Of a stretch of DNA of 64,000 nt, positions 2,810-27,325 are shown one piece after another; position 1 is the stretch's first letter; every line of letters begins with the position of its first letter. A program made the position numbers and the translations under genes. The notes below the pieces were generated by a model that did not search any database, had not been told where the DNA came from, and saw nothing but the letters and a program-made list of their open reading frames with translations. This DNA comes from the human T2T-CHM13v2.0 reference genome, Homo sapiens: contig CP068257.2 of the NCBI GenBank assembly GCA_009914755.4, forward strand, positions 1,088,001 through 1,152,000, given 5' to 3'.

Positions 2810-3200
2810 TGCTGACTGTTTGTTCCCATAGCTCTGTGGGCACCCGGAAACATGCAGGGAATGGTAGAAGTCCGGCATGGTGGCTTCGCTCTCCTTGCCC
2901 GTTTCCTAACCGCCCACACTGCAGACTCCCCATGTTGCCGCACACGGGAATCCATAGTCATGCCATCACGCCTGGGAGGCATCTTGTCTCTGGGGTCTGG
3001 CTCTGGTCTCCTATGTGGAAATGAACGAGAGCCACAAGCTTGCTTGTGTGAGACTGTCCCGGCAACGGCGACACCCACGGGCACTGCCTCCTTCTCGGAG
3101 AGAGGGCCTGAAACTCTCAAGACTCCCACGGAGGTTCAGTTCCACACTTCCCTCCACCCTCCCAGGCTGGTTTCTCCCTGCTGAAGACGTGTGGGAGCCC
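2810..3200 (+). repeat. LSau-like segment at the 5' end of D4Z4-like unit 1 (homologous segments at ~9917-10300, ~13165-13540, ~24558-24950)
   Basis: ~400-bp segment conserved at the start of all four units ('ctgtgggcacccggaaacatgcagggaa...ccacactgcagactccccatgttgccgcacacgggaatcc...'). Identification as LSau is from memory of published D4Z4 composition (LSau + hhspm3 + double homeobox), not from a search. Confidence 0.45.
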
Positions 3201-3456
3201 AGATAGCGTCTTCCAGTTCCCGCGGGATTCCTGGAGAGGTCCGGAGAGCCAGCCCCCGAAAAGCTCCCCCCACCCCTTCCCCCTCGCCCCTTTCCTCTTC
3301 ATCCCTCCTGCCCCACCACCACCAGCACCATGCCCTCCCCCTCAACCCACCACCCCCCAGCCACAGGCCTCGATGCCCTGGGACCCTTCCGGGGCAGGCT
3401 GTCCCAGGGCTCACCGCCATTCATGAAGTGGTGGAGCCTGCCTGCCTGAGGGCCTT

Positions 3457-24557: not shown

Positions 24558-27325
24558 TAAGGCTGACCGTTTGCTCCCGGAGCTCTGTGGGCACTGGGAA
24601 ACATGCAGGGAAGGGTGGAAGTCTGGCATGATGCCTTCGCTCTCCTTGCCAGTTTCCAAACCGGCCACACTGCAGACTCCCCATGTTGCCGCACACGGGA
24701 ATCCATCGTCAGGCCATCACGCCGGGGAGGCATCTCCTCTCTGGGGTCCCGCTCTGGTCTCCTACGTGGAAATGAACGAGATCCACCCGCCTGCGTGTGT
24801 GAGACTGTCTTGGCAATGACGACACCCACAGGCACTGCTTCCTTCACGGAGAGAGGGCCTGGAACTGTCAAGACTCCCACGGAGGTTCAGTTCCACACTC
24901 CCCTCCTCCCTCCCAGGCTGGTTTCTCCCTGATGACTACACGTGGGAGCCCAGAGAGCAGCTTCCAGTTCCCGCGGTATTCCTGGTGAGGTCCAGAGAGC
25001 CAGCCCCTGAAACGCGACCCCTCACCACTTACCCCTCGCCCCGTTCCTGTTCGTCTCTCCGGCCCCATCACCAACATCACCACGCCATCACATCCCACAG
25101 CAACAGCCCCCGTCCGCAGGCCTCGACGCCCTGGAACCCTTCCGGGGTGGGGCAGGCTGCCCCAGTTCTCACCGCCATTCATTAAGGGGTGGAGCCTGCC
25201 TGCCTGTGGGCCTTTATAAGAGCCGCTGGCTGGCTTTCCGGGCAGGCCTCCTGGCTGCACCTACCGCACTGCACATATCGGCTGAGGTGCACGGGAGCCC
25301 GCCGGCCTCTCTCTGCCCGTGTCCGTGAAATTCCGGCCAGTGCTTCCCGTGATGGCCCTCCCGAAACCTTCAGACGGCACTCTCCCCGTGGAAGCCCGGG
25401 GACGGGGATGGCGAAGGAGACTCGTTTTGACCCCGAGACAAAGCGAGGACCTGCGAGCCTGCTTTGAGCGGAACTCGTATCCAGGCATCGCCGCCAGAGA
25501 ACAGCTGGCCCAGGCCATTGGCATTCCGGAGACCAGTGTCCAGATTTGGTTTCAGAATGAGAGGTCACACCAGCTGAAGCAGCAACAGCGGGAATCTCGG
25601 CCCTGGCCCTGGAGACGAGGCCTGCAAGAAGGCAGGCGAAAGCCGACAGCCGTCACCAGATCACAGACCCCCCCTGCTGCTCCGAGCCTTTGAGAAGGAT
25701 CGCTTTCCAGGCATCGCTGCCAGGGAAGCGCTGGCCAGAGAGACAGGCCTCCCAGTTTCCAGGATTCAGATCCGGTTTCAGAATCGAAGGGCCAGGCACC
25801 CGAGACAGGCTGGCAGGGCACCCGCCTAGGCAGGCTGCCTGTGCAACGCGGCCCCCGTCGGGTGTCACCCTGCTCCCTCTTGGGTCGCCTTCGCCCACAC
25901 TGGCGCGTGGGGAACGGGGCTTCCCGCACCCCAGGTGTCCTGCGCACCTGGGGCTCTCCCACAGGGGGCTTTCGTGAGTCAGGCATCGAGGGCTGTCCTC
26001 GTGCTCCAGCCAAGCCAGGCTGCGCTGGCAGAGGGGATCTCCCAACCTGCCTCACCATGCTGGGATTTTGCCTACGTTGCCCCAGGTCTTCCTGAAGAGG
26101 CGCTCTCCCACCCTCAGGCTCCTCGGTGGCCTCTGCGCCCAGACAAAAGCTGGGAGGACGGGGACCCGCAGTGCGTCAGCCTGCCGGGCCCTTGTACGGT
26201 GGGACAGCCTTGGCCCGCTCAAGCAGGGCCACAGGGCCAAGGTGTGCTTGTGCCACCCGCGTCCCAGGTGAGTCCGTGGTGGGGCTGGGGCCGGGGTTCC
26301 CAAGTCACCGGGGCGGCGTGGGAACCCCAAGCCGGGACAGCTCCACCTCCCCAGCCTGCGCCCCCGGAGGCCTCCGCGGGGCAGGGGCAGATGCAAGGCA
26401 TCCTGGCGTCCTCCCAGGCATTCCAGGAGCCGGGGCGCTCGTCTGCACTCCCCTCCAGCCTGCTGCTGGATTAGCTCTTGGCGAGCCAGGAGTTTCTGCA
26501 GCAGGCGCAAACTTTCCCAGAAACGGAGTCCCCTGGGGAGCAGGAGGTCTTGAAAGAGGCCGCCTCACTGGAAGCACCCCTCAGCAAGAAAGAATACCGG
26601 GCTCTGCTGGAGGAGCTTTAAGTCACAGAGTTGGGACGGGGTTGGGTCGGGGCAGGGCGGTGACCTCTCTTTCGTGGGGAACACCTGGCTGGCTATGGAG
26701 TGGCGTGTCTTCCCCCAGCCCCCTCCACCAGCGTGACAGGCCTGGGATTCCTGCCTTCTAGGTCTAGGCTCGGAGAGAGAGTCCACACAGCGGAGAACTG
26801 CCATTCTTTCCTGAGCATCCTGGGGATCTCAGAGCCGACCCAGGTACCAGCAAGTGGGCCGCCTACTGCACACGCGCGGGTTTATGGGCAGCCGCCTGGG
26901 CTGTGGGAGCAGCCTGGCAGAAGCGCTCATGCCTTTCCACAACACCACCCCCGCCTGACCAGCCCCACCCCACCCCCAAATCCCACCCCTGGAAATTGCG
27001 TCCTCCCATGGGCTGGGTGGAGACCCACGTCCGGTGAAACACCGAGCCCACGCAGCATCCAGGTCTGACACCCCTCCAGCGGCTCGCCTCCTCTGCACCT
27101 CCCCACCACCATCGCCGGCCAGCCCATGCCCCTGCAGCCTCACAGCTGCCACCATGGAGAGCCTGGCGGTGGAACGCAGACGTCTAGCTCTCTTTGCTGG
27201 CCTCCTGGCTAGACCTGCACTCATTGCGCACCCCGGCTGATGTGGAAGGAGACCGCTGGCCTCTCCGTGCCCTTGTCTGTCTGAGAAATTCCGGCTGAGG
27301 CTCTCCCAAAACCTTGCGACGCTCT
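24558..27325 (+). repeat. D4Z4-like unit 4 (~2.77 kb, flanked by beta-satellite on both sides)
   Basis: Same boundaries and internal order as unit 1. The upstream beta-satellite flank is paralogous to block A and the downstream flank to 5556-6150. Confidence 0.85.
25352..26621 (+). pseudogene. DUX4L: DUX4-like double-homeobox pseudogene, copy 4 (intact homeodomain 1)
   Basis: ATG 25352: [107 protein letters not shown] frameshift follows (1-bp gain in 'cagaccccccctgctgct'). HD2 '[37 protein letters not shown]' ends in TAG. C-terminal half is in ORF 25935-26474; '[43 protein letters not shown]' + TAA at 26619-26621. TATAA at 25215. Confidence 0.85.

What the first reader, a model, noticed from the sequence alone, without database searches (positions are those of the whole stretch)
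2810..27325. Mixed organisation of D4Z4-like units: units 1 and 4 embedded in beta-satellite plus one genuine head-to-tail tandem pair (units 2-3)
Unit 2 is a full 3.25-kb unit that abuts unit 3 directly, as in canonical tandem D4Z4 arrays. Units 1 and 4 are ~2.75 kb with beta-satellite on both sides, and unit 3 has the same ~2.75-kb form but adjoins beta-satellite only at its 3' end. The beta-satellite flanks are paralogous: 5556-6150 vs 15916-16480 vs 27326-28200, and 1-2809 vs ~18130-24557. The amplified unit therefore appears to be [beta-satellite + D4Z4-like unit], a higher-order segmental repeat of roughly 10-20 kb, not the D4Z4 unit alone.
Basis: seen in the sequence. Interest (0 to 1): 0.55.

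Follow-up and report, generated by a model that had tools for sequence, protein, structure and literature searches.

The report
D4Z4-like units inside beta-satellite (LSAU-BSAT)

Summary
Four D4Z4-like units lie at 2810-5560, 9918-13168, 13169-15919 and 24562-27326, all on the + strand. They are 85-87% identical and all four DUX reading frames are broken. Units 1, 3 and 4 are the 2.75-kb form. Unit 2 carries an extra 627 bp (12542-13168) and runs head-to-tail into unit 3, giving one complete KpnI-KpnI period of 3243 bp.

The beta-satellite flanks are truly paralogous. Syntenic 544-bp windows are 85-93% identical, against a background median of 76.6% (95th percentile 79.7%). The beta-satellite-to-unit junctions are the same in every copy. 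Without CpG-type changes the units are 89-91% identical, the same as their flanks. Unit and flank were therefore amplified together.

The basic period is about 7.1 kb (2.75-kb unit plus about 4.36 kb of beta-satellite), not 10-20 kb. The 10-11 kb spacings come from the tandem pair and from a module that lost its unit.

Each 2.75-kb unit is the published "5'-truncated D4Z4-pLAM" element, which has 319 copies in T2T-CHM13. It lacks about 0.96 kb after KpnI and ends 338 bp past KpnI in a pLAM-like tail. Its CpG density is 5.3-6.2%.

This is the known LSAU-BSAT composite satellite, here next to HSat3. Verdict: real, correctly read, already known, low interest.

The parts
1..2809 (+). Beta-satellite block A (68-bp monomers), cut by the window start. 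It is the distal part of a spacer module plus a repeated distal piece.
   Evidence: TRF. The module map places 1-544 on ref 7785-8328, 953-1632 on ref 9215-9895 and 2177-2720 on ref 9283-9827. Its last 480 bp are 87-90% identical to the 5' flanks of U2 and U4.
2810..5414 (+). Unit 1 body: a 5'-truncated D4Z4-like unit. DUX ORF remnant at 3598-4851; KpnI at 5076.
   Evidence: tblastn shows frameshifts and stops; it aligns to recalled canonical D4Z4 positions 959-3300 and then 1-343 at 87.5-87.8%.
5415..5644 (+). pLAM-like tail of unit 1. It grades into beta-satellite from about 5551.
   Evidence: Shared with U3 and U4 but not U2. It is 78% identical over 277 nt to the recalled 4qA pLAM / DUX4 exon-3 sequence, and the ATTAAA site reads GTCACA. 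It is a paralogue of the pre-ATG segment.
5561..9917 (+). Beta-satellite spacer module B (4.36 kb). Together with U1 it makes one 7108-bp period.
   Evidence: TRF. 5574-8711 matches 15920-19060 at 87.1% over 3149 bp. Window-by-window best hits stay on one diagonal at 85-93%.
9918..12541 (+). Unit 2 body. It has the same beta-satellite 5' junction as U1 and U4. DUX ORF remnant at 10714-11978; KpnI at 12203.
   Evidence: 88.6% to recalled canonical positions 957-3300.
12542..13168 (+). The 627-bp 'linker', equal to canonical D4Z4 positions about 344-958. It is present only between U2 and U3 and makes the tandem junction, completing one KpnI-KpnI period (12203-15446, 3243 bp).
   Evidence: Unique in the window. 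87.1% to recalled canonical D4Z4 344-958. Contig L065 is 97-100% identical to the window across 9501-13500.
13169..15783 (+). Unit 3 body. DUX ORF remnant at 13958-15221, with two homeodomains recognisable; KpnI at 15446.
   Evidence: Pfam Homeodomain E = 6.6e-16. Primate double-homeobox homologues..
15784..15991 (+). pLAM-like tail of unit 3, with a 21-bp deletion relative to U1 and U4.
15920..24561 (+). Beta-satellite block C, made of two spacer modules. C1 runs from 15920 to about 20100. C2 runs from about 20100 to 24561 and has an internal duplication of about 700 bp at 21342-22293. The modules are joined without a D4Z4-like unit near 20100-20390.
   Evidence: Module map: 13182-18757 maps collinearly to ref 2829-8409, then 19710-20389 to ref 8615-9294, then 20118-20661 jumps back to ref 6085-6627..
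24562..27181 (+). Unit 4 body. DUX ORF remnant at 25352-26618; KpnI at 26843.
   Evidence: (Homeodomain E = 9.3e-17).
27182..27483 (+). pLAM-like tail of unit 4 plus the first beta-satellite monomers.
   Evidence: 80% to recalled pLAM over 279 nt.
27484..27789 (+). AluY insertion (281 bp) with a 25-nt poly-A. The target-site duplication is GCCTGGAAATG. It is a later event and not part of the repeat module.
   Evidence: 6 differences from the recalled AluY consensus. It is absent from the paralogous flanks B and C1.
27790..29342 (+). Beta-satellite block D, the first 1.5 kb of a spacer module. It ends at the HSat3 boundary.
   Evidence: 27785-29210 matches 16048-17474 at 90.9% and 5701-7126 at 84.8%..
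29377..64000 (+). (GGAAT)n human satellite 3 array. This is context, outside the finding.
   Evidence: TRF period 5, 6930 copies. Strong GC skew. CAACCCGAG-type interruptions are visible in the sequence.

Best explanation
The region is the edge of a human LSAU-BSAT ('beta-composite') satellite array, of the kind found on acrocentric short arms and at 1q12, abutting an HSat3 array. It has no coding function.

Its repeating element is a composite with five parts, in this order:
- A beta-satellite spacer.
- A D4Z4 unit truncated about 0.96 kb after its KpnI site.
- The KpnI site.
- A 338-bp partial next unit.
- A pLAM-like tail that merges into beta-satellite.

This is the same architecture as the distal end of the 4qA D4Z4 array (last unit, pLAM, beta-satellite).

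Shown here: the composite was amplified as one piece with a period of about 7.1 kb, because the junctions are identical, the flanks are collinear and unit and flank are equally diverged.

Inferred: the array was then reshaped by unequal exchange between beta-satellite monomers. That exchange produced the unit-less module junction near 20.1-20.4 kb, monomer-scale indels and an internal duplication of about 700 bp. An AluY inserted later.

The U2-U3 pair is an old variant of the composite that keeps the 627 bp normally missing, and so contains one complete KpnI-KpnI unit. It is not a recent local duplication, and it is not a recent conversion from the 4q/10q arrays.

The DUX reading frames are pseudogenes, and the position of the 4qA poly-A signal is not ATTAAA. 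The expected state is constitutively methylated heterochromatin. That state is taken from the literature and was not tested here.
For: Layout:
- Beta-satellite and HSat3 blocks.
- Four units at 85-87% identity.

Junctions:
- The 5' junction is identical in U1, U2 and U4, and U3 joins the homology at the same base through the linker.
- The 3' junction is identical in U1, U3 and U4.

Flank paralogy:
- Flanks are 85-93% identical against a background median of 76.6% and 95th percentile of 79.7%.
- Long collinear alignments.
- Module map with the 7108-bp period.

Co-amplification and age:
- Units are 89-91% identical without CpG-type changes, equal to the flanks at 89-91%.
- The phylogeny is star-like: 110-145 private changes per unit, and 2-2 splits of 24, 20 and 26. 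U2-U3 are therefore not sister copies.
- The linker is 87.1% identical to canonical D4Z4, like the bodies at 84-89%.

Geometry and sequence state:
- KpnI to tail is 338 bp, KpnI to the truncation point is 966 bp, and KpnI to KpnI is 3243 bp.
- CpG density is 5.3-6.2%, and all ORFs are broken.
- Homeodomains and primate DUX homologues are present.
- The tail is 73-80% identical to the recalled pLAM over 278 nt.

Literature:
- Beta-composite arrays of beta-satellite interspersed with LSau (10.1101/2021.07.12.452052).
- The LSAU-BETA composite lies on 16 chromosomes, with 80-95% identity within arrays in centromere transition regions (10.1101/2021.07.12.451456).
- T2T-CHM13 holds 319 copies of a 5'-truncated D4Z4-pLAM lacking about 0.9 kb and 13 full copies. 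They are about 90% identical to 4qA, have CpG about 5.4% and are interspersed with BSAT (PMC10620044).
- Arrays with one complete KpnI unit among about 25 partial ones lie at 13p11, 14p11, 15p11 and 1q12 (PMC12963445).

Independent human-derived contigs:
- At least 120 carry the same 5' junction, and 59 bodies end in the tail.
- L065 reproduces the path from beta-satellite through U2 and the linker into U3 at 97-100%.
Against: - No human reference genome was available, so the chromosomal locus and the RepeatMasker class could not be checked directly.
- The canonical D4Z4, pLAM and AluY references were recalled from memory. The D4Z4 recollection was cross-validated only for positions 344-958, at 99.8% against contig L098. 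Its 9.8% CpG density also matches the published figure.
- The metagenome contigs are short-read assemblies and visibly chimeric, so their long-range structure is weak evidence.
- The direction of the events is inferred and not shown. This covers whether the dimer or the single unit is ancestral, and whether a unit was deleted from block C or a unit-less beta-satellite module was duplicated.
Confidence: 0.93

Rival explanations
1. D4Z4-like units inserted independently, several times, into a pre-existing homogeneous beta-satellite array. Under this reading the flank similarity is just ordinary beta-satellite similarity.
For: Beta-satellite monomers everywhere in the window are about 77% alike, so some flank similarity is expected.
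Against: - The junction bases are the same on both sides in all copies.
- Syntenic flanks are 85-93% identical against a 95th percentile of 79.7% for non-syntenic registers, and the best hit stays on one diagonal for 10 consecutive windows.
- Collinearity extends over 3.1 kb and more.
- The same junction is present in at least 120 unrelated contigs.
Confidence: 0.01
2. The window is part of, or a recent derivative of, a canonical tandem D4Z4 macrosatellite (4q35/10q26 type). The U2-U3 pair would be the remnant of that array, or a recent gene conversion from it.
For: - There is one complete KpnI-KpnI period of 3243 bp, and the linker that only tandem D4Z4 has.
- Beta-satellite follows D4Z4 at 4qA (PMC3488192).
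Against: - U2 and U3 are only 86.5% identical.
- The units are 84-89% and the linker 87.1% identical to recalled canonical D4Z4.
- CpG density is 5.3-6.2%, not about 9.8% (PMC10620044).
- The ORFs are broken.
- Beta-satellite lies on both sides, and HSat3 is adjacent.
Confidence: 0.03
3. The mixed arrangement (single units plus one tandem pair plus a double-length beta-satellite block) is an assembly artefact of a highly repetitive region.
For: Satellite regions are error-prone, and the metagenome contigs of the same family are clearly chimeric.
Against: - The copies differ by 9-15%, which is ample for unique placement of long reads.
- Each unit has 110-145 private substitutions.
- An independent contig (L065) reproduces the path from beta-satellite through U2 and the linker into U3 at 97-100%.
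- L055 reproduces U4 plus the start of the Alu at 98.8%.
- Published arrays have the same one-complete-among-many-partial pattern (PMC12963445).
Confidence: 0.03

Closest known systems
LSAU-BSAT (LSAU-BETA) composite repeat / 'beta-composite' beta-satellite arrays of T2T-CHM13 (Hoyt et al.; Altemose et al.; classical LSau/Sau3A blocks of Agresti and Meneveri)
   Same: - 68-bp beta-satellite is interspersed with GC-rich D4Z4/LSau elements.
- Identity within the array is 85-87%, inside the published 80-95% for arrays in centromere transition regions.
- Other pericentromeric satellites are adjacent.
   Different: Nothing substantive. This stretch shows a 7.1-kb period with a 4.36-kb spacer. Other copies sampled here have spacers of about 0.6-3.7 kb, so spacer length varies between arrays.
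5'-truncated divergent D4Z4-pLAM element (319 copies in T2T-CHM13; Butterfield et al. 2023, PMC10620044) and its rare full-length form (13 copies)
   Same: - It lacks about 0.9 kb from the KpnI site (966 bp here).
- It ends in a 0.3-kb partial unit (338 bp here) plus pLAM-like sequence.
- CpG density is about 5.4% (5.3-6.2% here).
- It is interspersed with BSAT.
- The stretch from the U2 KpnI site to the U3 tail corresponds to the rare full form.
   Different: - All four DUX ORFs in this window are disrupted, whereas the paper reports that many copies keep full-length divergent ORFs.
- Identity to canonical D4Z4 is estimated at 84-89%, against a reference recalled from memory, versus the published value of about 90%.
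Distal end of the 4qA D4Z4 array (last unit, partial unit, pLAM, 6.2-kb beta-satellite), the FSHD-permissive configuration
   Same: The order of parts at the 3' end of every unit is the same: D4Z4, KpnI, about 0.34-kb partial unit, pLAM-like sequence, beta-satellite.
   Different: - Here the structure is repeated many times and also has beta-satellite on the 5' side.
- The units are 84-89% diverged and CpG-depleted.
- There is no intact DUX4 ORF.
- The position of the ATTAAA poly-A signal reads GTCACA.
Canonical D4Z4 macrosatellite (4q35, 10q26)
   Same: It is homologous over the whole unit. One head-to-tail junction (U2 to U3) has the canonical 3.24-kb KpnI spacing.
   Different: - This is not a homogeneous tandem array.
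- Copies are 85-87% identical instead of more than 98%.
- CpG density is about half.
- The genes are pseudogenes.
- The units are embedded in beta-satellite and lie next to HSat3.

Membership tests
LSAU-BSAT / beta-composite satellite | Arrays of 68-bp beta-satellite monomers flanking the GC-rich elements | tested here: met
   TRF finds period 68 at 2-2809, 5561-9911, 15929-24558 and 27789-29342.
LSAU-BSAT / beta-composite satellite | The interspersed element is D4Z4/LSau-homologous and carries a double-homeobox (DUX) ORF or its remnant | tested here: met
   - Pfam Homeodomain, E = 6.6e-16 and 9.3e-17.
- Best named homologues are primate 'double homeobox protein 4C-like' and '1-like'.
- tblastn with recalled DUX4 covers residues 1-424 in all four units.
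- 84-89% to the recalled canonical unit.
LSAU-BSAT / beta-composite satellite | Within-array identity of 80-95% for arrays in centromere transition regions | tested here: met
   Units are 85.1-87.2% identical and syntenic beta-satellite 85-93%. The published range is in 10.1101/2021.07.12.451456.
LSAU-BSAT / beta-composite satellite | Location on acrocentric short arms, 1q12 or other pericentromeric regions of the human genome | not testable with these tools
   No human reference was available. The adjacent 34.6-kb HSat3 array and near-identical human-derived contigs are consistent with this location.
5'-truncated divergent D4Z4-pLAM element | Lacks about 0.9 kb starting at the 5' KpnI site | tested here: met
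   KpnI at 12203 to the truncation point at 13169 is 966 bp. The alignment to the recalled canonical unit starts at positions 957-962 in U1, U2 and U4.
5'-truncated divergent D4Z4-pLAM element | The 3' end is a 0.3-kb partial D4Z4 followed by pLAM sequence and then beta-satellite | tested here: met
   KpnI to the divergence point is 338 bp in U1, U3 and U4. The tail is 73-80% identical to pLAM over 278 nt, E = 1e-44 to 1e-67. The pLAM reference was recalled from memory.
5'-truncated divergent D4Z4-pLAM element | Reduced CpG density of about 5.4% (against about 9.8% at 4q/10q) | tested here: met
   CpG per base is 0.053-0.062 in the four units. Published values are in PMC10620044.
5'-truncated divergent D4Z4-pLAM element | Uniformly high CpG methylation | not testable with these tools
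   This needs nanopore or bisulfite data.
Canonical D4Z4 macrosatellite (4q35/10q26) | Homogeneous head-to-tail 3.3-kb KpnI units (more than 98% identical) with an intact DUX4 ORF | tested here: not met
   There is only one head-to-tail junction. U2-U3 are 86.5% identical. All ORFs have frameshifts or stops.
FSHD-permissive 4qA distal end | ATTAAA poly-A signal in pLAM downstream of an intact DUX4 ORF | tested here: not met
   The aligned position reads GTCACA in U1, U3 and U4 (against a pLAM reference recalled from memory). The ORFs are broken.

The most novel reading that the evidence does not exclude
The pLAM-like tail that ends every 2.75-kb unit is itself a degenerate, internally deleted D4Z4 copy. 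By alignment, the same would hold for the 4qA pLAM that supplies DUX4 exon 3 and the FSHD poly-A site.

- At the exact base where U2 continues into the linker, the tail switches to a 72-78% paralogue of the roughly 130 bp just upstream of the DUX ATG plus the first codons. A 13-bp gap removes the ATG.
- The tail then runs into beta-satellite.
- The position of the 4qA poly-A signal falls in the first beta-satellite-like monomer.

I found no description of this in the papers I could search. It may nevertheless be known, and it concerns the evolution of the element only.
Probability: 0.25. Interest if true: 0.3.

Novelty: already known. Interest (0 to 1): 0.1.

Why it matters
It matters little beyond correct annotation. 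The window is a textbook example of the LSAU-BSAT composite, which T2T-era papers have catalogued genome-wide. Such copies matter in practice because they cross-react with primers, guide RNAs and probes aimed at the FSHD locus (PMC10620044, PMC12963445).

This stretch adds two things:
- A clean demonstration that unit and spacer have the same non-CpG divergence, and so were amplified together.
- Evidence that the rare complete KpnI unit inside such an array is as old as the truncated ones.

Tried and rejected
- Rfam scan of 1-30000 at gathering thresholds gave no RNA family.
- I tested whether single units are chimeras of a U2-like 5' half and a U3-like 3' half, as expected if singles arose recently from a dimer. 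Private differences are evenly spread and 2-2 splits are balanced at 24, 20 and 26, so there is no signal. The phylogeny is star-like.
- I tested whether U2-U3 is a recent local duplication. It was rejected: 86.5% identity, no higher than any other pair.
- I tested whether the linker is a recent conversion from 4q/10q. It was rejected: 87.1% to canonical.
- I used metagenome contigs to measure long-range structure in other copies. This was only partly usable because the contigs are chimeric short-read assemblies. L065 drops from 97-100% to 80-90% outside 9501-13500. The L098 and L036 'linkers' are canonical 4q/10q sequence.
- A literature search for a described origin of pLAM found nothing relevant.
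- I first thought the tail might be GC-rich degenerate beta-satellite. BLAST shows beta-satellite similarity only from about 5551 onward, while 5432-5540 matches the pre-ATG region instead.
- The KpnI site at 8009 inside beta-satellite is treated as chance.
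Full report
**Layout**

The window has three compartments.
- From 1 to 29342, blocks of 68-bp beta-satellite (GC about 47%) alternate with GC-rich blocks (64-69%).
- A 34-bp junction follows at 29343-29376.
- From 29377 to the end there is a strongly skewed (GGAAT)n array. It carries CAACCCGAG-type interruptions, which marks it as HSat3 by my knowledge of that family.

BLAST of the GC-rich blocks against the window resolves four homologous units:

| Unit | Coordinates | Length |
|---|---|---|
| U1 | 2810-5560 | 2751 bp |
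| U2 | 9918-13168 | 3251 bp |
| U3 | 13169-15919 | 2751 bp |
| U4 | 24562-27326 | 2765 bp |

All four are on the + strand and 85-87% identical. The extra 627 bp of U2 (12542-13168) has no other copy in the window and leads straight into U3.

**Identity of the units**

- ORF remnants contain homeodomains (Pfam PF00046, E = 6.6e-16 and 9.3e-17).
- The best named homologues are primate double-homeobox proteins.
- A DUX4 protein recalled from memory, used only as a ruler, aligns over residues 1-424 in every unit, but always split over frames and with stops. All four genes are pseudogenes.
- Each unit keeps the KpnI site at the homologous place: 5076, 12203, 15446 and 26843.

**Junctions**

- The transition from beta-satellite into the unit is at the same base in U1, U2 and U4. 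U3, which is preceded by the linker, joins the homology at that same point.
- The 3' end is at the same base in U1, U3 and U4. There U2 diverges into the linker, and the other three share a tail of about 150-260 bp that merges into beta-satellite.

Identical junctions on both sides exclude independent insertions.

I cut all beta-satellite into 544-bp windows and aligned each to every other register, giving 12,429 comparisons.
- Background identity has median 76.6%, 95th percentile 79.7% and 99th percentile 84.3%.
- Syntenic positions reach 85-93%, and for long runs the top hit of about 215 alternatives stays on one diagonal.
- The strongest relations are:
  - 5574-8711 with 15920-19060 (87.1% over 3149 bp);
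  - 16048-17474 with 27785-29210 (90.9%);
  - 2326-2809 with 9433-9917, and 2181-2809 with 23930-24561, on the 5' side;
  - 809-2546 with 22351-24093 (84.7%).

The flanks are therefore far more alike than random beta-satellite blocks, and the finding is not refuted.

**The real period**

I mapped everything onto U1 plus its spacer (2810-9917).
- One period is 7108 bp: a 2.75-kb unit plus a 4.36-kb beta-satellite module.
- Block 15920-24561 is two such modules. The first runs collinearly to about ref 9294.
- Near 20100-20390 the sequence jumps back to about ref 6085. The end of a spacer, a unit and the first 0.5 kb or so of the next spacer are therefore missing.
- The second module also has an internal duplication of about 700 bp (21342-22293).
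- Block 1-2809 is the distal part of a module with a repeated distal piece.
- Block 27790-29342 is the first 1.5 kb of a module, cut off by HSat3.

**Same age for unit and spacer**

- The units are 85.1-87.2% identical, and 28-33% of their differences are CpG-type transitions.
- Without those, identity is 89.3-91.0%. That matches the 3' flanks (88.8-91.0%) and the 5' flanks (87.2-89.6%).
- The four units form a star: 110-145 private changes each, and 2-2 splits of 24, 20 and 26.

U2 and U3 are therefore not a recent local duplication.

**Comparison with what is known**

- Hoyt et al. describe the LSAU-BETA composite on 16 chromosomes, with 80-95% identity within arrays in centromere transition regions (10.1101/2021.07.12.451456).
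- Butterfield et al. report the following for T2T-CHM13 (PMC10620044):
  - 319 copies of a 5'-truncated D4Z4-pLAM sequence of about 3.1 kb, lacking about 0.9 kb from the KpnI site;
  - 13 copies of the full 4-kb form (a 3.3-kb unit, a 0.3-kb partial unit and 0.4 kb of pLAM);
  - both forms mostly in LSAU-BSAT regions of the acrocentrics and chromosome 1;
  - about 90% identity to 4qA, CpG density about 5.4%, and interspersion with BSAT.
- PMC12963445, Table 1, lists bsat-flanked arrays with one complete KpnI unit among about 25 partial ones at 13p11, 14p11, 15p11 and 1q12.

The window's geometry fits these descriptions exactly:
- KpnI to the truncation point is 966 bp.
- KpnI to the tail is 338 bp.
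- KpnI to KpnI from U2 to U3 is 3243 bp.
- CpG density is 5.3-6.2%.

Two sequences recalled from memory support this.
- A canonical D4Z4 unit (3300 bp, CpG 9.8% as published) aligns at 84-89%, with the truncation at positions 957-962 and the 3' end at 342-343. Positions 344-958 of this recollection were cross-checked at 99.8% against an independent human-derived contig.
- The 4qA pLAM / DUX4 exon-3 sequence aligns to the three tails over all 278 nt at 73-80% (E = 1e-44 to 1e-67). The ATTAAA site reads GTCACA in the window.

**Independent copies**

Where the sample is named, it is a human-associated one.
- In all 102 contigs with enough upstream sequence the junction is preceded by beta-satellite. 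This is partly forced by the search pattern.
- The body ends in the pLAM-like tail 59 times and in a linker twice.
- The distance from one body's end to the next junction is about 0.6, 1.2, 1.9 and 3.7 kb in other copies.
- These contigs are chimeric short-read assemblies. L065 is 97-100% identical to the window across 9501-13500 and 80-90% outside that range. Even so, it reproduces the path from beta-satellite through U2 and the linker into U3.
- L055 reproduces U4 plus the start of the Alu at 98.8%.

These matches support human origin and argue against an assembly artefact.

**Mechanism**

Shown:
- A composite of beta-satellite, truncated D4Z4, partial unit and pLAM was amplified as one unit.
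- The copies have since diverged by about 10% at non-CpG sites, with heavy CpG decay in the GC-rich part.

Inferred:
- The spacing variants arose by unequal exchange between beta-satellite monomers.
- The dimer is an old variant that retains the linker. The linker is 87.1% identical to canonical D4Z4, as diverged as the bodies. It cannot be generated from single units, which lack it.
- The AluY (27484-27789, TSD GCCTGGAAATG, 6 differences from the recalled consensus) is a much later insertion.

No function is proposed beyond heterochromatic satellite DNA. Methylation could not be tested.

**Side observation**

The pLAM-like tail is a 72-78% paralogue of the roughly 130 bp upstream of the DUX ATG plus the first codons.
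- A 13-bp gap removes the ATG.
- The paralogy begins exactly where U2 continues into the linker.
- This suggests that pLAM is an internally deleted extra D4Z4 copy, cut by beta-satellite.
- I found no paper describing this.

**Verdict**

The structure is the already described LSAU-BSAT composite, so novelty and interest are low.

Noticed in passing
window 27484-27789 (TSD at 27473-27483 and 27790-27800): A young AluY (281 bp, 6 differences from the recalled consensus) with a 25-nt poly-A and target-site duplication GCCTGGAAATG is inserted in the 3' flank of unit 4 only. Contig L055 (OOQC01001128.1) carries the same unit and the Alu 5' end at 98.8%.
   Followed up: yes
window 5415-5560, 15784-15919 and 27182-27326, versus 3488-3585, 10588-10700, 13847-13954 and 25245-25337: The pLAM-like tail of the 2.75-kb units is a 72-78% paralogue of the segment just upstream of the DUX start codon plus the first codons. 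A 13-bp gap removes the ATG. The paralogy starts exactly at the point where U2 continues into the linker. pLAM therefore looks like an internally deleted extra D4Z4 copy. I found no description of this in the searchable literature.
   Followed up: partly
window about 20100-20390 and 21342-22293: Beta-satellite block 15920-24561 is two spacer modules joined without a D4Z4-like unit; the map jumps from ref 9294 back to ref 6085. The second module has an internal duplication of about 700 bp. This is consistent with unequal exchange between beta-satellite monomers.
   Followed up: partly
window 29343-64000: A 34.6-kb (GGAAT)n HSat3 array with CAACCCGAG-type interruptions starts 34 bp after the last beta-satellite monomer, which is cut mid-module. 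The array has very strong GC skew (+0.7) and fills more than half of the window.
   Followed up: no
loci L001-L120 (e.g. L065 OOQC01000070.1, L098, L036): At least 120 metagenome contigs carry the beta-satellite/D4Z4 junction. Those whose sample is named come from human-associated samples, so this is host DNA in 'microbial' assemblies. The longer contigs are chimeric. L065 is 97-100% identical to the window for 4 kb and 80-90% outside it. L098 and L036 join divergent units to linker sequence that is 99-99.8% canonical 4q/10q.
   Followed up: partly
protein P0102: A DUX-like homeobox protein fragment, 74% identical to unit 3's N-terminus, is filed in NCBI under Cutibacterium acnes subsp. acnes. 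This is almost certainly human contamination of a bacterial assembly.
   Followed up: no
locus L024 versus window 13169-16110: A contig 96.4% identical to unit 3 and its 3' flank is preceded by the beta-satellite junction instead of the linker. It is either a close paralogue of U3 existing as a single unit elsewhere or an assembly chimera. This was not resolved.
   Followed up: no
window 15784-15991: Unit 3's pLAM-like tail has a 21-23-bp deletion relative to units 1 and 4 at the transition into beta-satellite.
   Followed up: no
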